From Thermoplasmata archaeon (GTDB taxonomy: Archaea > Thermoplasmatota > Thermoplasmata > Thermoplasmatales > GCA-001856825): 64,000 nucleotides of DNA. Location: positions 812-64,811 of the forward strand of contig JAJZYT010000003.1 of assembly GCA_021797915.1 (NCBI GenBank). The letters are read 5' to 3'. Positions 5,330 to 36,885 of the stretch are shown piece by piece. Numbering within the stretch: the stretch's first letter is position 1; every line of letters begins with the position of its first letter. Made by a program: the position numbers and the translations under genes. Under the pieces are notes generated by a model. That model was not told the DNA's origin. It did not search any database and was given only the letters and a program-made list of their open reading frames with translations.

Positions 5330-6286
5330 TTAGAATCTTATGGAGGATGGTTCTTTCACCTTTCTTGCGACTGCTATTGCATACAAAGCGATCAAAGCTG
5401 CCACGATGATACCACCCACTACAGTCAACACGATGAAAGAAGACTCCAAGAGACCGGTATTTGTTATGGAATCCACTCTGAGAACCCCTCCAAAAGCAGT
5501 GGGATACACCATGAAATTCAGGGAGAATATATCCACGGAGAGCAAAGATATGAACACGATCTTATTGCTAACTATAGCTGCAACGTTCTTGACGTTGTAG
5601 AGGATTGGGATAAGTATCGCAATAACATCCGATACCAGCACATAGGGCGAGAGAGTCCAGTTTCTGAACATAGCGAATGAAAGCGTTGACACAATTATCC
5701 CAAATGCCACAAATAAGAGGGATAGCTTGGATAGACTTGGGACCCTGTAGAAAACGGGTGCAAATCCCACCATCAGCAACAAGGCACCAACAATGAAAAG
5801 GTATCCAGAAGGCTGGTATAGCCAGTTCAGACTGCTGAATCTAAAAGCAGAAAGATTGACGCCATTCCCGCCAATTATTCCGCTCAGTATAACCAGGAGT
5901 ACTAGTCCAAGAAAAATTGAAGAGAGTGCGTACCCAACATACAGCTTCCTATCGTCCAACCAACCCCTCTTCCTGATGAACTCTGCAAATGAAATAGTCG
6001 AGTTCCTTGCTACGAAGAGGATGAGAAATACCATGATAGCGAAAGAGAATATGCTCGCAACGGGTATGAGGATTGGAGGGTAAGCGAAGTCCGCAGTTAC
6101 TACCCAAAATGCCCCGAATGTTCCGGTGATCTCCCAGACAGGAACCACGTACTCAAGTACCGGTTCCCTGTATTTTTTCCAGTTCAGAAGGAGGAGAATG
6201 CTTCCCATGAGTTCAGTTATGATCATTGCAGCAAAGATGGAGAAGATTGCAAAATTGGCATAGAAGAGGAAGTTAATGTTCAACAC
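5330..6286 (-). CDS. cydB: cytochrome bd oxidase subunit II
   Basis: Polytopic membrane ORF immediately downstream of cydA. The probable start is GTG at 6284-6286, preceded by GAGAGG and 8 nt from the cydA stop. The ORF-track start at 6382 lies inside cydA. Confidence 0.75.
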   Translation of the reverse strand: MLNINFLFYANFAIFSIFAAMIITELMGSILLLLNWKKYREPVLEYVVPVWEITGTFGAFWVVTADFAYPPILIPVASIFSFAIMVFLILFVARNSTISFAEFIRKRGWLDDRKLYVGYALSSIFLGLVLLVILSGIIGGNGVNLSAFRFSSLNWLYQPSGYLFIVGALLLMVGFAPVFYRVPSLSKLSLLFVAFGIIVSTLSFAMFRNWTLSPYVLVSDVIAILIPILYNVKNVAAIVSNKIVFISLLSVDIFSLNFMVYPTAFGGVLRVDSITNTGLLESSFIVLTVVGGIIVAALIALYAIAVARKVKEPSSIRF

Positions 6287-7625
6287 CTCTCTTCCTATTG
6301 TGAAGTGATGATTCTGGAATAGTATGGAATATTCTATCGTAGAAGTAGAACGTTGCAGGAATGAGAACCAGGTAAAACGCAATAATAAAATAACCTGGAG
6401 CTAGCTGTCCCGACGAGTAATTGGCTGCCTTGCTCACTGTCATAACATTGTAAACTATCCAGGGTTGCCTCCCGACTTCATCCGTTACCCATCCTATTTC
6501 GTAAACGACTAGCGCAGACAGCCCAGCTGCCACTTGGGTCCACAACAACCACCTATATTTCAGCAAATCCCTCTTCGTCAGGAATAAGATAAATAATATG
6601 AACAAGAAAAGACCCAGCAAAAGACCACCAGTCACCATAATGTCGAAAGTAGTATGAACCCACAGAGGGGGCCAATCGGTCGATGGGAACTGCGAAAGTC
6701 CCGGGAGAAGTTTAATCCCGGTTTCGACGGTAGCGAGGAGTGATTGAAGTCCGGGAATTTGTATGCCGCCTACAAAGTGGCCATTTACGATCGACCCAAA
6801 CAATCTCTCGGGGGCATTCGTGCCCGGGAAATAGTTTGCATCAAGTGCAGCGTATTTCAGTGGCTGATTTGATAGCAGCGTTGTCATCTCGCCTGAACCT
6901 GTCACACCCGCAAGAATTATGGTAACTATCGAAGAGATGCTTGCCATCTTCACCATCACACCATAGAGAATCTTGTTTGCCGAATCGCTTTCTCTCAAGT
7001 ATTTGTAAGCGAAGTAAGCACACCAGATCATGACCCCTGCAAAGACCGTTGTAGTAGTTACGTGGACCGCCTCACTAAATCCAGAAGAAGTAAGGAACGG
7101 AGCCCATGGGCTGACTCCCGTGACTTTTCCTGTGGCCTCATAGACTGAAATGTTGAATCCATTTGGCGTGTTCATCCACGCATTCACCAGAGTTATGAAA
7201 ACCGCAGAGAGAAGAGTTCCAAGTAGTATGAGGGAAGAGAAGACCAAATTGGAATACTTCCACTTATAAGCCCCTTCGAAGTAAACATAAACGACCAACA
7301 CAATCGTTTCCAGGAAGAATGCGAATACTTCTGCATAAAAGAGATTGATGGCTCCCGTCTCGGACAACAGCGTCATGAAACCAGGAAAGAGATTGACAAG
7401 TTCAACTGCCATTACAATACCGCTGGCTGTTCCCACTCCGAAGGAAATCACGAATACACGCTTCAACCTGTATATTAGCTCAGAATAACGGTTTTTTCTT
7501 CTGAAGAGGAACAGTCCTTCAAGTATGGTTATGAATAGAACAATGGAGATGCTAATTGAAACTATGATTATGTGGGAACCAATTGTGAACGCAAAGAGTG
7601 CTCGATCAAACGTTACCACTGACAT
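6273..7625 (-). CDS. cydA: cytochrome bd oxidase subunit I
   Basis: 450-aa polytopic ORF with the CydA signature GWVTDEVGRQPWIVYNVM. Confidence 0.9.
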   Translation of the reverse strand: MSVVTFDRALFAFTIGSHIIIVSISISIVLFITILEGLFLFRRKNRYSELIYRLKRVFVISFGVGTASGIVMAVELVNLFPGFMTLLSETGAINLFYAEVFAFFLETIVLVVYVYFEGAYKWKYSNLVFSSLILLGTLLSAVFITLVNAWMNTPNGFNISVYEATGKVTGVSPWAPFLTSSGFSEAVHVTTTTVFAGVMIWCAYFAYKYLRESDSANKILYGVMVKMASISSIVTIILAGVTGSGEMTTLLSNQPLKYAALDANYFPGTNAPERLFGSIVNGHFVGGIQIPGLQSLLATVETGIKLLPGLSQFPSTDWPPLWVHTTFDIMVTGGLLLGLFLFILFILFLTKRDLLKYRWLLWTQVAAGLSALVVYEIGWVTDEVGRQPWIVYNVMTVSKAANYSSGQLAPGYFIIAFYLVLIPATFYFYDRIFHTIPESSLHNRKRGVEH

Positions 7626-8283
7626 TTTCGCTCACAACCCCTTTCGTCTTGAACAACGAACCGAAGTCCACGAACCCAATCCATAGCAACAGTATCCCTA
7701 TAAATTCTGCAATGTACAGGAAGGACGGAAAAGAGGCGATGTAGAGTGTCCCTGCCACACTTACCACCAAAACTCCAGCCACAATGCTGAGGAGTTTAGG
7801 CTGCCTAGATTTCCTGAATGAAATCAATGAGATCAAAATCAATATAACAGCGGCAGGAAACGTAACGAAGGAAGAGGACAGTACCACTAAAAGTGGGAGC
7901 GTGCCGTACACTATTCCGCTCAACACTATGTTACTTATATGTGTCACCAACAAAGATACGAGTAAGAAGATAGTTGAAGCCGTAATATAGAGTGTATACG
8001 CATAGAACGTCATCTTTCCCTTTAGCAGGGTAGTGGAGCCGAGCGCCAACAAGCTCACAAGTACAGCTACGAGGAATGTGTAAAACCTTATAAGGCCCTC
8101 ACTGAAAATCCCAACAGAAAATATGATCTCAAGACCAACGCTTATTGAAAAGAGCCACATTCCTGAGGACCAGAGCAATGTGCTGTTCGTTTTTTTCTTG
8201 ACGTAACTCGCCGAGAGCAGTATGGCCAATATCGCACTGAGCAAGAAAATGACGATGGTAGAAACAAGTGCCTGAAGGTACAT
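7606..8283 (-). CDS. hypothetical polytopic membrane protein (about 7 TM) upstream of cydAB
   Basis: 225-aa hydrophobic ORF. Its 3' end overlaps the cydA start by 20 nt, so it is probably in the same operon. No family recognised. Confidence 0.6.
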   Translation of the reverse strand: MYLQALVSTIVIFLLSAILAILLSASYVKKKTNSTLLWSSGMWLFSISVGLEIIFSVGIFSEGLIRFYTFLVAVLVSLLALGSTTLLKGKMTFYAYTLYITASTIFLLVSLLVTHISNIVLSGIVYGTLPLLVVLSSSFVTFPAAVILILISLISFRKSRQPKLLSIVAGVLVVSVAGTLYIASFPSFLYIAEFIGILLLWIGFVDFGSLFKTKGVVSENVSGNV

Positions 8284-8414
8284 TTAATCAAACTTCCTTT
8301 TTATGTTGAAGGTTGCTTTATTTACTGAGTCATACTTTATCATATAACCTGTACTTTCAAGCGCTTCTCTGCACATCGTTACTATTATCTGTTCGTAGTG
8401 TAAAATTTTAACGC

Positions 8415-8700
8415 ATGTGAGCGGGAATTCCCCTTTTGCAAGATAGAGGATGAAAGCGAATGAAAAGTTTATTGGTTCTCCCAACATATTGTACTGTCCG
8501 CTGGCAGACAGAAGTGAAACAGGTCGCGGATAGCATATTGCTTCATGCATGCCTGCATCCGTAAAGTCAGATGGCTTAGCATGAAGGACAGAGTACCTTC
8601 GGGCCGAGGGGAATTCAAGCCCATGGAGATTCCCGCCAGCAACCTTTGAAGTGGGAAGCTCCCTGCGAAAGCTGGGAGAGGAGGTCACCTACTTCACGAC
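8415..8700 (+). ncRNA. candidate structured ncRNA (RNase P RNA-like; identity and ends tentative)
   Basis: GC-rich island between AT-rich flanks.
- Long-range 8-bp pairing: 8421-8428 with 8629-8636.
- Hairpins at 8583-8600 and 8647-8696. The second contains a GAAA tetraloop at 8667-8670 and a G-U pair that is only valid on the + strand.
- The strings AGUGAAACAGGUCGCGGAUAGC and CCGUAAAGUC...AGCAUGAAGGACAGAGUA resemble RNase P S-domain conserved regions.
- No convincing P4 helix was found. Confidence 0.4.
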
Positions 8701-8811
8701 TAATCCTAGAAACAAGAAAAATATTCCAATTCCAGAGATTCCCAAGTCAAAGTAGGTGTGTCCCCGATCAAGATACAGATACAAACCCAGAACGAAAAGT
8801 ATAACGCCCAT
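8689..8811 (-). CDS. possible small 2-TM membrane peptide (40 aa)
   Basis: ATG 8809-8811 to TAG 8689-8691, encoding MGVILFVLGLYLYLDRGHTYFDLGISGIGIFFLFLGLVVK. It is below the ORF-track size cut-off. Its 3' end overlaps the ncRNA candidate, so it may be spurious. Confidence 0.25.
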   Translation of the reverse strand: MGVILFVLGLYLYLDRGHTYFDLGISGIGIFFLFLGLVVK

Positions 8812-8899
8812 CACTAAGAATCTCAACTTTATTGCTCGGATTCAATCGCCTCCCATTCTCAATTACAGGATTTACTTCTTCTAAATATGTTGTTGCATT

Positions 8900-9799
8900 T
8901 CATTTGAGTATTTTCTTTAGCACTTCCAGGACTGCCTCTTCCCTGGTGAGGTCGTCGCTTACTACTTTTTTCGCAAACATCTCAATGATATCGTCCTTGG
9001 ATTTCAATACCTCAAGGATCTCTCTTCGAATTCTTTCTTTCTCCCTCAAAATCACGGACTCGTCTTTCGCCTTGGAGCTCCTCCCAGCATCAATCAATTT
9101 CACCAGTTCTTTTATTCCTTCTCCCGTTAGTGCAGAGACCTTCACAAGGCTGTGTTTCTTGGAAAGGTCGGGAATGCTCAGCGTCTCCATGAGCTCCTTT
9201 TCTGCTATTATTGCATCTGGCTTGTCGGCCTTGTTCAGCACCACATAGTCTCCTATCTCCATCTGTCCCGCTTTGAGCGCCTGCACCTGGTCACCCATTC
9301 CCGGTGAAAGGACCATGATTATTCTGTCTGCAAAGTGCAGTATATCCGTTTCATCCTGACCGGTACCAACCGATTCAACCAAGGTCATCGTAAAACCCAG
9401 GTACGACATCAGGTCCAGTGAATCCCCAAGTGCCAGATTGAGCCCGCCGGTGGACCCTCTCGTCGCCATGCTTCTCACATAAATGTTGTCTGTGTTTTCT
9501 AACCTTAACCTGTTGCCAAGCAGAGATCCACCGCTAAACGGAGAAGTCGCATCGATCATCACAATCGCGAGTCTCTCTCTCTTTGAAAACTCGGCGGCAA
9601 GTCTTGATATGAGTGAACTCTTCCCGACACCAGGTGGCCCTGTTATGCCAACTACAAAGGTGTTTTTCTTCTTGCGACTGATCCTCTTTATCAGGCTGGA
9701 ATAACCATCGCTGCGGTTCTCCATTATAGTAACTAATTTTCCGATGTCCCTCCTGTTGCCGCTTTCCGCAGACGAAATGAGCTCTGACAACTTTGGCAT
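8900..9799 (-). CDS. meaB: MeaB/ArgK-family G3E GTPase
   Basis: P-loop GITGPPGVGKSS, VESVGTGQDE and the NKADK G4 motif; 299 aa. Confidence 0.85.
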   Translation of the reverse strand: MPKLSELISSAESGNRRDIGKLVTIMENRSDGYSSLIKRISRKKKNTFVVGITGPPGVGKSSLISRLAAEFSKRERLAIVMIDATSPFSGGSLLGNRLRLENTDNIYVRSMATRGSTGGLNLALGDSLDLMSYLGFTMTLVESVGTGQDETDILHFADRIIMVLSPGMGDQVQALKAGQMEIGDYVVLNKADKPDAIIAEKELMETLSIPDLSKKHSLVKVSALTGEGIKELVKLIDAGRSSKAKDESVILREKERIRREILEVLKSKDDIIEMFAKKVVSDDLTREEAVLEVLKKILK

Positions 9800-9825
9800 C
9801 CCATTCCTATTTCTTCAACGGTAAA

Positions 9826-10185
9826 TTACTTTTCTTTGGTTCCACGTCTGAACGCTCTTAGTGGAAGCATTACGCAGTTTATCCTACCTGGAGATATCTT
9901 GATGGGGAAGTTCTCTACAAAGGCAAGGTCGTCTTGTTCTTTCAACGAATTGATCTCTTTCCCGATTGCATTCTCGCAAAACATATCAGTCGATACTACG
10001 GAGAGGATGCACCCCTCACCCTGCCACTTCATATCACTTATTCTCCCATTCCCATCTGTCTTGATGTAGAGCACGATTCTGTCACCGCAGGTACTGGATG
10101 CCTCATCTATCTTTATTTCGAAATCTTCCATCTTCCCATTCTTTGCGGGGTTCTGGTATCTGTCCATCACCTCATCATTGTACAT
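9826..10185 (-). CDS. sufU: SufU/IscU-like Fe-S cluster scaffold (NifU N-terminal domain)
   Basis: 119 aa with three conserved Cys contexts (STCGD, GEGCILS, INCVMLP). It abuts the sufS stop. Confidence 0.8.
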   Translation of the reverse strand: MYNDEVMDRYQNPAKNGKMEDFEIKIDEASSTCGDRIVLYIKTDGNGRISDMKWQGEGCILSVVSTDMFCENAIGKEINSLKEQDDLAFVENFPIKISPGRINCVMLPLRAFRRGTKEK

Positions 10186-11442
10186 CTACAATTCACCGAG
10201 CGAACTCACGAACGCTTCGACATCCTCTTCTCCATTGTACACATAGAATGATGCTCTTGCAGTGCCGGGCAGGTGGAGTGATCTCATTAGCGGCTCAGCG
10301 CAGTGATGTCCCGATCGAACGTACACATTTCTTTCATCAAGGAAAGTCGCAATGTCGTGCGAATGATACAGCCTGTCAACCTTCACATTCTTGCTTTCGA
10401 GGTCATTCCCCAAGTTAGAAGAATCCTTGACATTGAAAGCGATTACCCCTCCTCTTTCTTCGGCGTTTCTGGGGCCATAATACTTGACATTTTTCAAGTC
10501 TTCCAATTTCCTGAGCGTCATTGAAGTCAGATGTTTTTCGTGACTTCTGACTTCTTCCATACCTATCTTTTTCAGGTAATAAACCGCCGCTGCGAGTCCT
10601 ACCGCACCCTCCACGTTTGGAGTGCCAGCTTCGAATTTGATCGGCGGATCTTCGAATATTGCAGAGTGGAAGTCAACGTCTTTAATCATTTCTCCACCTC
10701 TGTTGAAAGGAGGCATTTCTTCCAGGAGATGATATTTCCCGAATAGGACGCCTATGCCCATGGGTCCAAGCATCTTGTGACCAGAAAATGCAACAAAATC
10801 GTACTGTTCCTTCATCTTGAACGGCATATGAGGAACAGACTGAGCTGCATCAATTATGAAAGTTGAGCCATTCTCCTTTGCCACCTTTCCGATCTCCTCT
10901 ATGGGATTTATTGTTCCCAAGACATTGGACTGGTGAGTTACCGAGACTATCTTCGTTTCCCGTTTAAGTTTAGACTTCAGGTCTTCGATATCTAGATGTC
11001 CTTCTTTATCGAATCCAACGTAATCGAGGTAAATTCCTCTCTCCTCGAGTCGCATCCACGGCAGTATATTGCTGTGGTGCTCCATCGATGTAATCAATAT
11101 CCGATCTCCCTTTCTCAGGGATTCGCCTATGGTGAACGAGAGCAGATTCAGACTCTCCGTCGTGTTCCTGGTGAAGACGATCTCGTTGCTTCTTGCTCCT
11201 ATGAATTCGGCAACGTTCGACCTTGAATTTTCGTAGAGTTCGGTGGCGTCATCAGCAAGTTTGTAGACCGAACGGTGAACGTTCGCGTTTGAACCCTCAT
11301 AATAATTGACTATGGCATCTAGAACTTGTTTTGGTTTTTGAGTTGTGGCAGTCGAGTCAAGGTAAACCATGCTCTTGCCATTGAACTTCTTTTTGAAAAT
11401 CGGGAAATCTTCCTTCTTACAGAAGTCGCTAATCATTACCAA
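10186..11442 (-). CDS. sufS: cysteine desulfurase SufS (class V aminotransferase)
   Basis: PLP-lysine motif SGHKMLGP and catalytic Cys loop RSGHHCAEPL; 418 aa; sits in the suf operon. Confidence 0.92.
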   Translation of the reverse strand: MVMISDFCKKEDFPIFKKKFNGKSMVYLDSTATTQKPKQVLDAIVNYYEGSNANVHRSVYKLADDATELYENSRSNVAEFIGARSNEIVFTRNTTESLNLLSFTIGESLRKGDRILITSMEHHSNILPWMRLEERGIYLDYVGFDKEGHLDIEDLKSKLKRETKIVSVTHQSNVLGTINPIEEIGKVAKENGSTFIIDAAQSVPHMPFKMKEQYDFVAFSGHKMLGPMGIGVLFGKYHLLEEMPPFNRGGEMIKDVDFHSAIFEDPPIKFEAGTPNVEGAVGLAAAVYYLKKIGMEEVRSHEKHLTSMTLRKLEDLKNVKYYGPRNAEERGGVIAFNVKDSSNLGNDLESKNVKVDRLYHSHDIATFLDERNVYVRSGHHCAEPLMRSLHLPGTARASFYVYNGEEDVEAFVSSLGEL

Positions 11443-34611: not shown

Positions 34612-34684
34612 AGCCACCGGAGGGAATCGATCCCCCGACCTGCTGATTACAAATCAGCTGCTCTACCGACTGAGCTACGGTGGC
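34612..34684 (-). tRNA. tRNA-Thr (anticodon UGU)
   Basis: Hand-folded cloverleaf:
- Acceptor GCCACCG/CGGUGGC.
- D arm GCUC-AGUCGGUA-GAGC.
- Anticodon arm GCUGA-UUUGUAA-UCAGC.
- T arm GGGGG-AUCGAUU-CCCUC.
- 73 nt, no encoded CCA. Confidence 0.9.
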
Positions 34685-34836
34685 AATTAGGAAGCTTCTG
34701 AACATCCTACGATTATTTTATCCTTTTCGTTCCGTGATTAGTATTTCGCTGTTTGCAGTTATCGAATAGTCCATTGTTAATAAACATAAGACGGGTGAAA
34801 TGAGTCAAAACTTTTCTCGGTATGTTTGTATCACCA

Positions 34837-34921
34837 CGCCGAGGGGGAGATTTGAACTCCCGAGCTCTCGCGAGCAATAGATCTCGAATCTATCGCCTTG
34901 GCCGGGCTAGGCTACCTCGGC
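34837..34921 (-). tRNA. tRNA-Ser (anticodon CGA)
   Basis: Hand-folded cloverleaf:
- Acceptor GCCGAGG/CCUCGGC.
- Anticodon arm AUAGA-UUCGAGA-UCUAU.
- 15-nt long variable arm.
- T arm GGGAG-UUCAAAU-CUCCC.
- 85 nt. Confidence 0.9.
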
Positions 34922-35136
34922 ATAAATTGCTGATTGGAAAAGACTATGAGAATTTAACCGTTTGTGAATTCCTTTTAATTAGCAATGGAATGCTTCACCG
35001 AATTCTTGATGAGAATGAAAGCCGGATTCAACAATATCAGGAGAATATCGTTCAACGGAGGAGAAGAATTTGGGAAACGAGAACTCTCTTATCTCCAATA
35101 AGGGGCAAAGGAGGAAAGTCATAACACAATATTGGC

Positions 35137-35415
35137 GTGGGTGGAGAAGGGGGTAAAGTCACAGGAAAACACAGATATAATGACGGTGCTAAATCGCATT
35201 CAATGATGAGATCCCAAGTGACTACGATTCACCGATCATTCCGTGAGGGATGGCCTTCTAGTATTATGGACGATGAAGGTGCAATGCGAAACGCCAATGC
35301 GTTTTTTAATGCTGAAAAGGTTGCAGGAACTATCTCGCAAGAGCAATTCTGTCCAGACTCAGAGGTGAAGAGCAACATATTAGCGATAGTATCGAATCAA
35401 CGAGATGATCAATAA
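35137..35415 (+). CDS. hypothetical ORF (92 aa from GTG; 70 aa from ATG 35203), doubtful
   Basis: Its stop TAA directly abuts the ATG of the next gene (TAAATG at 35413-35418). No recognisable domain. It lies in a poorly coding patch next to tRNA genes. Confidence 0.3.
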   Translation: MGGEGGKVTGKHRYNDGAKSHSMMRSQVTTIHRSFREGWPSSIMDDEGAMRNANAFFNAEKVAGTISQEQFCPDSEVKSNILAIVSNQRDDQ

Positions 35416-35970
35416 ATGGTCAAGTTGGAGGAAAATTCAGCTCTAGTTGTAATAGATGTGCAAAAAGTCTGGTCAGAGCCAATCTTCGGAAAAAGGAACA
35501 ATCCTGATGCAGAAAAGGTGATAGCTGGATTGATGGGAAAATTCAGGGAGAGCGGAAGAACGATCATTCATGTAAGACACGACTCCTTAAACCCTGATTC
35601 ACTCTTCAAGCAAGGGAAACCAACGTTCGATTTCAAGGATGAGGTAAAACCATTGCATAATGAGAAAGTTATAACGAAGCACGTGAATAGCGCATTTATC
35701 GGAACAGATCTTGAAAGTCATCTCCGGAAAATTGGCAACCCTCAGGTATATTATGTTGGGTTGGTGACGGATCACTGTGTGAGCACCACTGTAAGGATGT
35801 CAGGAAATTTGGGATTCAGGAGTTATGTCATTGAAGATGCGTGTGCTACATACGACAGGACAGATTCAAAGGGTAATGTCATCCCAGCAGAAGAGGTGCA
35901 CAGGACAAATCTCGCTTCAATAGATGGCGAGTTTGCGGAAGTCATAGAATCCAGCGAACTGAATTTATGA
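35416..35970 (+). CDS. isochorismatase-family cysteine hydrolase
   Basis: ALVVIDVQKVW and GLVTDHCVSTT motifs; 184 aa. Paralogous fold to pncA at 30048. Confidence 0.82.
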   Translation: MVKLEENSALVVIDVQKVWSEPIFGKRNNPDAEKVIAGLMGKFRESGRTIIHVRHDSLNPDSLFKQGKPTFDFKDEVKPLHNEKVITKHVNSAFIGTDLESHLRKIGNPQVYYVGLVTDHCVSTTVRMSGNLGFRSYVIEDACATYDRTDSKGNVIPAEEVHRTNLASIDGEFAEVIESSELNL

Positions 35971-36217
35971 CCAATAATCTTTGAAGAGCAGATATGGTTT
36001 GAATTGGTCAACGTTTAACAGGAATTATGAAGTGATCCAGGCACACTTCGTGTCGTAGCACAGGGATTGCAATTCTTTGACACCGAGTCGTTGCGCTTCT
36101 CCTTGTATTACTTCTGAATCCCAAGAAATGTTAATTCAAAATCGCTTATTTGATTCTATCCCTTCTTCCATGGAAAGAGTCTTAAAAAATATTGTTTTAA
36201 GGCAATTACGAGAACCT

Positions 36218-36613
36218 TCACGCATTCGGTACAGAGTCTTTCGAAGCTCGCATAAAGGATCCCTTAAACTTTAACCCATAGAAAGCGAGAGTTATAACAG
36301 AGGCAATAATGAGAGCAGTCCATAGCACAATCATAAAGTGGTCTACTCCCATCAGTTGACCAACTACAGCCGCCCGCATATTCTGTGTAACAATACTATT
36401 CGTAGGGTGATAAACATCGGACCAATATAAAGGATAAAAAGTCTTGACAATATAACCTACTCCTGGAACGTAGTTGAATGGGAAGCCTGGATTAGCTATT
36501 CCTCTTGTCGAAACAAAATACCAAAGTTCAAGGATATAATAAAGAAATAGAGATTCGAGGACTATGAAGATTGATGTGCCTCTTATCAATCTGCCCTTAT
36601 TAGTATCCATCAA
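36218..36613 (-). CDS. hypothetical 2-4 TM membrane protein (single copy of a module duplicated in 50374..51147)
   Basis: 131 aa. The segment IFIVLESLFLYYILE...PGFPFNY...AFYGLKFK resembles both halves of the 257-aa protein at 50374. Confidence 0.55.
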   Translation of the reverse strand: MMDTNKGRLIRGTSIFIVLESLFLYYILELWYFVSTRGIANPGFPFNYVPGVGYIVKTFYPLYWSDVYHPTNSIVTQNMRAAVVGQLMGVDHFMIVLWTALIIASVITLAFYGLKFKGSFMRASKDSVPNA

Positions 36614-36813
36614 TAATAAAACAAAATGTAATACTTATATGTACTGTTTCAGTCAGTTCTGCAATTTGGAGCGTCTTCTGCCTGGAACTTGCACTGGGTA
36701 CTGCGCCGCTGGTCTTTTATCTACTGTTTATTCAGGAGAAAAGACAGACGGATCTTCAATTCTATGCACTGTTCCAAGGTGAAAGATTTGGAGTATTTAC
36801 TTACAAATCTAAG

Positions 36814-36885
36814 TGGACTGGCGGGGATTTGAACCCCGGACCTCCTGCTTGCAAAGCAGGCGATCTTCCGCTGATCTACCAGCCC
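36814..36885 (-). tRNA. tRNA-Ala (anticodon UGC)
   Basis: Hand-folded cloverleaf:
- Acceptor GGGCUGG/CCAGUCC with the G3-U70 alanine identity pair.
- Anticodon arm CCUGC-UUUGCAA-GCAGG.
- T arm CGGGG-UUCAAAU-CCCCG.
- 72 nt. Confidence 0.92.

What the first reader, a model, noticed from the sequence alone, without database searches (positions are those of the whole stretch)
8415..8700. GC-rich, strongly structured island of about 285 nt: candidate RNase P-like ncRNA on the + strand
The stretch stands out from AT-rich flanks and folds convincingly by eye.

Structure on the + strand:
- Long-range 8-bp pairing gcgggaat (8421-8428) with attcccgc (8629-8636).
- Hairpin GAAGG-ACAGAGUA-CCUUC (8583-8600).
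- A helix AUGGCUU / AAGCCCAU (8571-8577 with 8617-8624) encloses that hairpin.
- An extended hairpin at 8647-8696. The outer stem is UGAAGUGGG/CCUACUUCA. The inner stem-loop is CUCCCUGC-GAAA-GCUGGGAG, with a GNRA tetraloop at 8667-8670.

Strand evidence: the G8653-U8690 wobble and the GNRA loop only make sense on the + strand.

Resemblance to RNase P: two strings resemble, from memory, the RNase P RNA specificity-domain conserved regions.
- AGUGAAACAGGUCGCGGAUAGC (8513-8534), compared with E. coli GGGUGAAAGGGUGCGGUAAGAGC.
- CCGUAAAGUC...UAGCAUGAAGGACAGAGUA (8559-8595), compared with E. coli CGGUAAACUCC...GAGCAAGGCCAAAUAGG.

Caveat: I could not locate a convincing P4 helix (GAGGAAAGUCC paired with ACAGAA..GGCUUA). 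The identity is therefore tentative. It could be an unusual or divergent RNase P RNA, or a different structured RNA.
Basis: partly seen in the sequence, partly recalled or inferred. Interest (0 to 1): 0.62.

Follow-up and report, generated by a model that had tools for sequence, protein, structure and literature searches.

The report
Small gene-less transposon, not RNase P
The "structured GC-rich island" is a 277-base mobile DNA element with no genes, of the IS200/IS605 (PATE) type. It jumped into a TTTAA site in this archaeon and may encode a guide-RNA-like transcript. It is not RNase P.

Summary
No RNase P model matches.

The segment 8412-8688 (277 nt) is absent, with a clean junction, from two genomes that are 96-99% identical in the flanks. 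Related copies (68-97% identical) occur in at least 15 other genomic contexts in Thermoplasmatota.

- **Ends:** every 5'-complete copy sits right after TTTAA (once TTTAT). There is no target duplication. All but one 3'-truncated copy end in a hairpin plus AGGAGG(U/C)CAC, followed by unrelated sequence.
- **Match to a known family:** this is the layout of archaeal IS200/IS605 elements, whose published TAM is TTTAA.
- **Right end:** it resembles the right ends of Halobacterium ISH35 (tnpA+tnpB) and of a published PATE-type RNA. It matches Rfam HgcC only weakly (20.6 bits; threshold 50).
- **Coding:** database "proteins" over the element mix reading frames. No TnpB-sized parent was found.

Best reading: a non-autonomous, PATE-like IS200/IS605-type transposon. 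A conserved core behind a TATA-like motif suggests a TnpB-type guide-RNA transcript, but that is inferred, not shown. This is a new member of a known kind and of modest interest.

The parts
8407..8411 (+). TTTAA target motif (TAM) abutting the left end. It belongs to the host, not to the element.
   Evidence: Present in the empty sites of L001/L002. TTTAA precedes the element in every other 5'-complete copy with a readable left flank, and TTTAT in L014. It is the same as the published LE-abutting TAM of S. islandicus IS200/IS605.
8412..8688 (+). The 277-nt mobile element (PATE-like, gene-less). There is a 1-nt ambiguity because C flanks both junctions.
   Evidence: Absent with a clean junction AAAATTTTAA|CTACTTCAC in L001/L002. 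The same unit with the same boundaries occurs in at least 15 other contexts.
8429..8450 (+). Left-end subterminal hairpin UCCCCU-loop-AGrGGA, starting 17 nt from the boundary.
   Evidence: Predicted by RNAalifold. By-eye reading of L038 gives UCCCAC/GUGGGA, a perfect stem with changed pairs. The column counts are mixed.
8463..8473 (+). AAAAG-TTTATT: BRE/TATA-like motif, an inferred internal archaeal promoter.
   Evidence: The TT is invariant in a region that is otherwise variable. The TTTAT-like 5-mer lies exactly 27 nt before the start of the conserved core in 7 copies. Its function is inferred, not shown.
8495..8688 (+). Conserved core: the putative transcribed scaffold of about 190 nt.
   Evidence: Column conservation is 0.90-0.92 here, against 0.79 for the left end and 0.65 for the linker. 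Helices are kept across copies.
8648..8688 (+). Right-end module: GAAGUGGGAAG, then an 8-bp stem with tetraloop (8659-8678), then the 10-nt tail AGGAGGUCAC up to the boundary.
   Evidence: Compensatory stem changes in L038. Weak HgcC match at 8606-8701. Model R1, built from this module, puts its two best pNRC200 hits on the right end of ISH35 (32 nt after the tnpB stop) and on the RE motif of VNG_R6334.
8689..8706 (+). 3' flank: the would-be guide segment if the RNA works like a TnpB omega-RNA. Bases 8689-8691 are also the stop codon (TAG on the minus strand) of the 45-aa ORF.
   Evidence: The flank differs in every copy. By analogy, the published Halobacterium RNA ends about 17 nt beyond its RE boundary. 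Inference only.
8284..8688 (-). 134-codon minus-strand ORF: an artefact that is part element and part flank.
   Evidence: No Pfam family. 'Homologs' match only the element part, switch between all three frames, and have unrelated ends.

Best explanation
Window 8412-8688 is a non-autonomous, gene-less transposon of the IS200/IS605 type, that is, a PATE-like element with a left end and a right end fused around a short core. It inserted into this Thermoplasmatales genome immediately 3' of a TTTAA motif, in the intergenic space between a 45-codon ORF and a membrane-protein gene.

Shown:
- it is an insertion polymorphism;
- it is multi-copy;
- it has a fixed 5' target motif, no target duplication and no terminal inverted repeats;
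- it has a subterminal hairpin near each end;
- its right-end module resembles the right ends of known haloarchaeal IS200/IS605 units.

Inferred:
- it moves as single-stranded DNA by 'peel-and-paste', catalysed in trans by a Y1 (HUH) TnpA encoded elsewhere;
- its + strand is transcribed from an internal BRE/TATA-like promoter (start near 8496) through the right end into the flank;
- that would give a scaffold of about 190 nt plus about 16-20 nt of flank-derived sequence (CUACUUCACGACUAAUCC), which could serve a TnpB nuclease supplied in trans as a guide against the TTTAA-flanked empty site, as TnpB omega-RNAs (sotRNA/HgcC) do.
For: **Insertion.** The flanks are 96-99% identical to L001/L002 and abut there.

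**Repeat family.** There are 36 minus-strand and 33 plus-strand short 'proteins' over copies, and 82 clusters in the 50%-identity library. 13 distinct full or nearly full copies plus truncated ones were retrieved, from at least 15 other contexts.

**Ends.** TTTAA (TTTAT in L014) lies on the 5' side, GAGGAGG(U/C)CAC on the 3' side, and the 3' flanks are unrelated. The published archaeal IS200/IS605 TAM is 5'-TTTAA at the LE, with the guide RNA made from the RE. PATEs and the LE-TAM / RE-guide layout are described.

**Right end.** The hairpin lies 10 nt from the boundary and shows compensatory changes. There is a weak HgcC hit (20.6 bits, E = 0.02 locally). HgcC RNAs arise inside 'transposase' genes in the sense direction. 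The Halobacterium RNA VNG_R6334 hits sot0042 at 76 bits and HgcC at 35 bits, and has the same GUGGGAA / 8-bp stem with tetraloop / GAGAGGAKGUCA layout. The two best hits of model R1 in 200 kb of strand fall on ISH35's RE and on that motif, both full-length with all 7 pairs intact.

**Not protein.** Frames are mixed and no domains are found.

**Core constraint and promoter-like motif.**
Against: - No TnpA or TnpB gene was found next to any copy or anywhere in the roughly 400 kb fetched.
- No TnpB-sized protein shares the element's + frame tail, even with full HMMER against 1.84 billion proteins.
- HgcC is far below its gathering score, and the hit disappears in larger searches. sot0042 and the IS605-orfB families do not hit.
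- R1's scores on pNRC200 (13.3 and 12.0 bits) are no higher than the best background hit in the window (13.1 bits). That test therefore rests on where the hits fall, not on score.
- A left-end model does not find ISH35's left end.
- The whole-element profile finds nothing else in pNRC200.
- Covariation is thin because the copies are young, and the fold is not unique.
- There are no expression data.
Confidence: 0.72

Rival explanations
1. It is a mobile, non-autonomous element, but of another or unknown mechanism, for example a MITE-like derivative of a different transposase family or a rolling-circle/HUH Y2 element. On this reading the IS200/IS605 resemblance is superficial.
For: No transposase or nuclease partner was identified. 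The left-end model fails on ISH35. Right-end similarity scores are at noise level.
Against: An asymmetric 5' target motif, no target duplication, no terminal inverted repeats and a subterminal hairpin at each end together define IS200/IS605. TTTAA is a published archaeal IS200/IS605 TAM. Both of R1's top hits fall on known right ends.
Confidence: 0.15
2. It is a PATE that is purely selfish DNA. The internal conservation reflects recent spread, the hairpins act only as ssDNA sites for TnpA, and any transcript is without function.
For: Most copies are 85-97% identical, and the covariation term is about zero. No TnpB was found.
Against: The core stays 0.90-0.92 conserved even in the copies that are 68-80% identical overall, while the linker and left end drift. 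A TATA-like motif sits at a fixed 27-nt spacing. Comparable PATE and sotRNA transcripts are expressed in Halobacterium and T. kodakarensis.
Confidence: 0.3
3. It is a solo copy of the IscB guide RNA (HEARO-type omega-RNA), because one copy lies directly upstream of an iscB gene.
For: In L018/L033 the element ends 22 nt before an RRXRR+HNH (IscB) ORF, on the same strand.
Against: Intact IscB loci L034/L035 carry a true HEARO RNA (108.5 and 90.6 bits). In L018 the element is inserted inside that HEARO at ...GAGUUUAA|AAACCCC.... HEARO does not match the element. The conserved motif is on the wrong side for the IscB layout.
Confidence: 0.02
4. It is an RNase P-like or other housekeeping structured RNA.
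For: A structured + strand segment; two short strings recalled as resembling RNase P conserved regions.
Against: No RNase P, SRP or other housekeeping family hit. It is absent from near-identical genomes, and it is multi-copy and mobile.
Confidence: 0.01
5. It encodes a protein: the 134-aa minus-strand ORF, or the + strand frame that is open in most copies.
For: Long open frames exist on both strands, and gene callers called them more than 100 times.
Against: 'Homologs' mix all three frames and run into unrelated flanks. No Pfam domain. The window copy breaks the + frame with its own indels. No similarity to TnpB C-termini.
Confidence: 0.02

Closest known systems
PATEs (palindrome-associated transposable elements): gene-less IS200/IS605 derivatives with fused LE and RE. 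Examples are Haloquadratum and Halobacterium VNG_R0052, and the ISGst PATEs of Geobacillus.
   Same: Gene-less, with LE and RE hairpins fused around a short core. Multi-copy. Insertion next to an AT-rich motif without duplication. Comparable size: the RE-motif RNA VNG_R6334 is 275 nt.
   Different: A different host lineage (Thermoplasmatota) and a different sequence. No protein-coding relative with the same ends was found here, whereas the published PATEs were recognised by their similarity to full elements.
TnpB guide RNAs: omega-RNA / reRNA / sotRNA (Rfam sot0042, RF02656) and HgcC (RF00062)
   Same: The same right-end architecture: GUGGGAA lead-in, 8-bp stem with tetraloop, then GAGGAGGUCA up to the element boundary, followed by variable flank. 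An internal promoter is suggested, as for the HgcC internal start sites.
   Different: It does not overlap a tnpB gene. It scores 20.6 bits against HgcC's threshold of 50 and does not hit sot0042. Upstream of the last 41 nt there is no detectable similarity.
Sulfolobus islandicus IS200/IS605 elements (SisTnpB1)
   Same: An identical LE-abutting TAM, 5'-TTTAA-3', in an archaeal thermoacidophile, with the guide taken from the flank 3' of the RE.
   Different: Those elements encode tnpA and/or tnpB. Sequence similarity of the ends could not be tested, because no Sulfolobus sequence was available in the collections used.
HEARO / IscB omega-RNA (RF02033)
   Same: Similar length, structured, associated with IS200/IS605, and found in the same organisms.
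   Different: Unrelated in sequence and model, with the opposite end geometry. In L018 the present element actually interrupts a HEARO RNA.
RNase P RNA
   Same: Only that it is a structured segment of about 280 nt on the + strand.
   Different: No model match, not universal, multi-copy, mobile.

Membership tests
RNase P RNA (archaeal or bacterial) | Match to the RNase P covariance models (the conserved P4 core and CR regions are scored together) | tested here: not met
   No hit at gathering threshold in 64 kb or at E<=10 in 8200-8950.
RNase P RNA (archaeal or bacterial) | A single-copy essential gene, present at the orthologous site in close relatives | tested here: not met
   Absent from L001/L002. 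Multi-copy in other contexts.
IS200/IS605 family (as a non-autonomous PATE) | No target-site duplication and no terminal inverted repeats; precise presence/absence junction | tested here: met
   Empty site AAAATTTTAA|CTACTTCAC compared with the filled site. The ends are asymmetric.
IS200/IS605 family (as a non-autonomous PATE) | Insertion 3' of a conserved 4-5 nt motif (TAM) that abuts the left end only | tested here: met
   TTTAA, or TTTAT in L014, at every 5'-complete copy; the right flanks are unrelated. Junction codons V-K (GTT AAA) in further ORF hits are consistent with this.
IS200/IS605 family (as a non-autonomous PATE) | Subterminal imperfect palindromes (hairpins) at both ends on one strand | tested here: met
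   LE hairpin 8429-8450. RE hairpin 8659-8678, 10 nt from the end. Compensatory changes in L038.
IS200/IS605 family (as a non-autonomous PATE) | Ends homologous to those of a TnpA/TnpB-encoding element | tested here: inconclusive
   RE: R1's top two hits in pNRC200 fall on the ISH35 RE and the VNG_R6334 RE, but their scores equal the background. LE: model R2 finds nothing. No Thermoplasmatota parent was found.
IS200/IS605 family (as a non-autonomous PATE) | Mobilisation by a Y1 HUH transposase (TnpA) through ssDNA | not testable with these tools
   No tnpA in the fetched loci.
IS200/IS605 family (as a non-autonomous PATE) | PATE: no protein-coding capacity of its own | tested here: met
   Mixed-frame 'homologs' and no domains.
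HgcC (RF00062) / sotRNA (RF02656) / TnpB omega-RNA | Score at or above the Rfam gathering threshold | tested here: not met
   HgcC scores 20.6 and 17.5 bits against a threshold of 50 and is not seen at E<=1 in a 14-kb search. sot0042 is not hit.
HgcC (RF00062) / sotRNA (RF02656) / TnpB omega-RNA | Encoded at or overlapping the 3' end of a tnpB gene | tested here: not met
   No tnpB is adjacent to any copy. No TnpB-sized homolog of the + frame exists.
HgcC (RF00062) / sotRNA (RF02656) / TnpB omega-RNA | RE hairpin and terminal motif, followed by a variable 3' flank (the guide position) | tested here: met
HgcC (RF00062) / sotRNA (RF02656) / TnpB omega-RNA | Transcribed, and bound by TnpB | not testable with these tools
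   No transcriptome or protein data were available.
HEARO / IscB omega-RNA (RF02033) | HEARO model match, and native position upstream of iscB | tested here: not met
   No HEARO hit on the element. True HEARO is present in the intact loci. The element is inserted within HEARO in L018.

The most novel reading that the evidence does not exclude
These elements could be self-promoted, protein-less 'guide-RNA genes' that spread as PATEs through Thermoplasmatota. Each new copy would acquire a new guide from its 3' flank and feed a nuclease encoded in trans (a TnpB or an unrecognised partner). That would make them a dispersed, mobile guide library with no linked effector gene. One copy sits inside the guide RNA of an IscB element, which would be direct interference between two RNA-guided transposon systems.
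Probability: 0.2. Interest if true: 0.6.

Novelty: new member of a known kind. Interest (0 to 1): 0.35.

Why it matters
**For annotation.**
- It removes a false RNase P candidate and a false 134-aa gene.
- It exposes well over a hundred spurious short 'proteins' in public databases that are really translations of this repeat.
- The roughly 48-residue 'N-terminal extension' of IscB proteins annotated at 472-476 aa appears to be their HEARO guide RNA read as protein.

**For biology.**
- It adds an abundant gene-less IS200/IS605-type family in acidophilic Thermoplasmatota, with a TTTAA target shared with Sulfolobus elements.
- Dispersed copies appear to drive recombination: the L018 and L033 loci share one flank but not the other.
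- If the conserved core is a trans-acting guide RNA, the family would be a natural example of guides uncoupled from their nuclease.

Tried and rejected
1. **RNase P, SRP and every other Rfam family.** Nothing but a weak HgcC hit.
2. **Other copies in the window, plasmids or phages.** None.
3. **Viral-contig pattern scan.** One chance hit inside a phage gene (L012).
4. **Metagenome pattern scan.** 7 real copies; 4 chance hits in low-complexity eukaryote-like DNA (L026, L029, L031, L032).
5. **IscB omega-RNA hypothesis.** Attractive, but rejected. The homologs' 48-aa N-terminal extension is split by the element in L018, and intact loci carry a real HEARO RNA.
6. **LE/RE sequence similarity within the element.** Not above shuffles.
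7. **'TnpB C-terminal remnant' in the + frame**, including my recollection of a TPVE...EAGSP tail.
   - The word-indexed search gave only short solo-copy ORFs.
   - The full HMMER profile search gave the same. P0206 is a spurious tandem-repeat hit.
   - No similarity to the two Halobacterium TnpB C-termini.
   - Not supported.
8. **Left-end model against ISH35.** No hit.
9. **Whole-element profile against pNRC200.** Nothing.
10. **De novo covariation scan.** Too noisy with 13 sequences to fix a fold.
Indecisive, 15 vs 10.
12. **Outgroups L003-L011 to polarise the indel.** Not syntenic.
13. **TnpB motif regex over all fetched DNA.** No hits.
14. **Bacterial-type promoter and terminator scan.** Uninformative for an archaeon.

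Full report
**1. The observation.**

The GC rise is modest: 0.54 against about 0.37-0.42 in the immediate flanks. The single sequence folds only marginally better than shuffles on either strand (z = -1.96 and -1.74). On its own this would be weak.

**2. Direct test of the interpretation.**

Rfam 15 at gathering threshold finds only three tRNAs in the 64-kb window. At E<=10 on 8200-8950 there is no RNase P, SRP or HEARO match. The only hint is HgcC (RF00062) at 8606-8701 on the + strand, 20.6 bits against a threshold of 50.

**3. It is an insertion.**

The neighbouring MeaB gene identified the organism as a Thermoplasmatales archaeon and brought in syntenic loci. In the two closest (L001 and L002; flanks 94-99% identical), window 8284-8411 and 8689-8900 match and abut. 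The empty site reads AAAATTTTAA|CTACTTCAC, and the window carries an extra 277 nt, 8412-8688, with no target duplication. More distant relatives are not syntenic here. Polarity therefore rests on the next point.

**4. It is a repeat found in many contexts, and it is not a protein.**

- Searching the 134-codon minus-strand ORF returned 36 called 'proteins'. They match only the element part, switch among all three reading frames, and continue into unrelated residues.
- The + strand frame returned 33 more short ORFs.
- A full HMMER profile search returned 82 clusters. All real hits are short, and none is TnpB-sized.
- DNA for 13 distinct full or nearly full copies (68-97% identical), plus truncated ones, was retrieved.
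- Their boundaries coincide with the indel boundaries in the window.

**5. Ends and target.**

- Every 5'-complete copy follows TTTAA (TTTAT in L014).
- All copies retrieved with an intact 3' end finish with a hairpin plus AGGAGG(U/C)CAC, followed by unrelated sequence; L036 is truncated 7 nt short of that end.
- A left-end hairpin starts 17 nt from the boundary. The right-end hairpin ends 10 nt from it.
- In L038 the right-end stem is rebuilt with compensatory pairs. L039 has C-to-U changes that keep G.U pairs on the + strand.

This combination defines IS200/IS605 elements: an asymmetric 5' motif, no duplication, no inverted repeats, and a subterminal hairpin at each end. Archaeal IS200/IS605 elements in S. 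islandicus use exactly 5'-TTTAA-3' as the motif abutting the left end, with the TnpB guide RNA made from the right end and the 3' flank.

**6. The IscB detour.**

One copy (L018, L033) ends 22 nt upstream of an RRXRR+HNH gene, that is, an IscB. That suggested an IscB guide RNA. It is not one.
- Close IscB homologs are 472-476 aa, with a 48-residue N-terminal extension. In L018 that reading frame is split by the element at a TTTAA.
- Intact loci L034 and L035 carry a bona fide HEARO RNA there (108.5 and 90.6 bits, threshold 83). The element lies inside it in L018.
- The published IscB layout also puts the conserved motif at the far end, not next to the RNA's 5' end.

**7. Link to TnpB-type right ends.**

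- HgcC RNAs in T. kodakarensis start inside 'transposase' genes in the sense direction.
- Gomes-Filho et al. tie HgcC, sotRNAs and PATE-derived RNAs together through an RE hairpin with an 8-bp stem and a tetraloop. They report expressed PATE RNAs and a 275-nt RE-motif RNA on pNRC200.
- That RNA hits sot0042 (76 bits) and HgcC (35 bits) and ends ...GUGGGAAUC-UUCGCCC-UUCA-GGGCGGAG-AGGAUGUCAAC. My element ends ...GUGGGAAGC-UCCCUGC-GAAA-GCUGGGAG-AGGAGGUCAC.
- A covariance model built only from the last 41 nt of eight Thermoplasmatales copies was run over 100 kb of pNRC200. Its two best hits, both full-length with all seven pairs, fell (i) 32 nt after the stop of the annotated tnpB of ISH35 (a tnpA+tnpB unit) and (ii) on that RE motif.
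- My rough estimate is that both top hits landing on one of three known right-end sites by chance has a probability of the order of 1e-6.
- The bit scores (13.3 and 12.0) are no better than the best background hit in the window (13.1). The argument is therefore positional.
- A left-end model, the whole-element profile and the + frame peptide all fail to connect to the Halobacterium elements.

**8. Is there an RNA?**

Three things suggest one.
- The core (alignment columns 86-170 and 205-283) is more conserved (0.90-0.92) than the left end (0.79) or the linker (0.65), even in the copies that are 68-80% identical overall.
- An AAAAG-TTTAT(T/A) motif lies exactly 27 nt before the core in at least seven copies, the spacing of an archaeal TATA box.

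Against it:
- RNAalifold's covariation term is about zero.
- Alternative helices compete.
- No expression data or partner nuclease were found.

I therefore treat a TnpB-type guide RNA (start near 8496, scaffold to 8688, guide from 8689 onward) as a reasoned inference, at about 40%. Its identity as a PATE-like IS200/IS605-type insertion is the well-supported conclusion, at about 70-75%.

**9. Verdict.**

This is a real feature, correctly located and on the correct strand, but wrongly identified. It is a new family within a known kind: gene-less IS200/IS605 derivatives with a guide-RNA-like right end. Interest is modest.

Noticed in passing
L018 3001-3274 (-), L033 143-417 (+), compared with intact L034 2412-2654 and L035 2464-2666: A copy of the element is inserted inside the HEARO guide RNA of an IscB locus, at ...GAGUUUAA|AAACCCC.... 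The iscB ORF stays intact (423 aa from its likely true start) in L018 and L033, but is truncated after about residue 164 in L025.
   Followed up: yes
P0037-P0078 etc.; L034 2501-2650: Public IscB proteins of Thermoplasmataceae and Ferroplasma are annotated at 472-476 aa. Their first ~48 residues (MKEKQKLDRRNTYTP...) overlap the HEARO RNA match, so they look like the guide RNA read as protein, that is, an over-extended start codon.
   Followed up: partly
L018 versus L033: The two loci share 99.8-100% identical IscB, ZPR1-like and Ta1207-family genes and the last ~85 nt of the element. The element's 5' two-thirds and the left flank differ. This looks like recombination between dispersed copies that rearranged the genome.
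   Followed up: partly
L028 758-2532: One copy is interrupted near its 5' end by about 1.5 kb carrying an IS110-family transposase (DEDD_Tnp_IS110 + Transposase_20, 409 aa) on the opposite strand. A duplicated fragment of the element's left end lies at 2499-2532.
   Followed up: partly
window 8689-8826 (-): A 45-codon ORF predicting a small hydrophobic protein is 93-100% conserved in L001/L002. The element's right end abuts its stop codon (TAG, 8691-8689), so the insertion replaces whatever followed that gene and lies 129 nt upstream of the next gene (7606-8283).
   Followed up: no
window 8647-8655 with 8688-8696: Eight bases of pre-existing host flank (CUACUUCA) are complementary to UGAAGUGG just 5' of the right-end hairpin. 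Three other copies have partly similar flanks (CCCUCUUCC, CCCCUUCUA, UCCACAUC) and most do not. My rough estimate puts chance at about 1%. It is unexplained.
   Followed up: partly
window 8525-8528 and 8633: The window copy has a private 2-nt insertion (CG) and shares a 1-nt insertion with L013 only.
   Followed up: yes
L022 3155-3389, L030 1547-1782, L036 9884-10151, L039 31-280: Decayed copies exist. L022 and L030 share one 5'-truncated version. L039 lacks the first ~24 nt. L036 lacks the last 7 nt (...GGGAGAGG|TTACAG).
   Followed up: no
P0006 and P0015: Two minus-strand ORF 'proteins' share the same residues on the right-flank side (MVKTKITVSVEKPVVDNAKLAL) but differ on the left-flank side. 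This is another possible case of exchange between copies.
   Followed up: no
window 6273-11442 (-): The context is a run of same-strand genes: SufS-like cysteine desulfurase, NifU-like protein, MeaB-family GTPase, the 45-aa ORF, a 225-aa membrane protein and cytochrome bd subunit I. The element lies antisense to all of them. The window has three tRNA genes (34612-36885) and no RNase P or SRP RNA.
   Followed up: partly
L041 34296-34336 (-), L042 18246-18286 (+): Halobacterium pNRC200: the right end of ISH35 and the RE motif of VNG_R6334 share the tail GAGGAGGUCA / GAGGAUGUCA with the HgcC consensus and with the Thermoplasmatales element. This points to a terminal motif conserved very widely across archaeal IS200/IS605 right ends.
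   Followed up: partly
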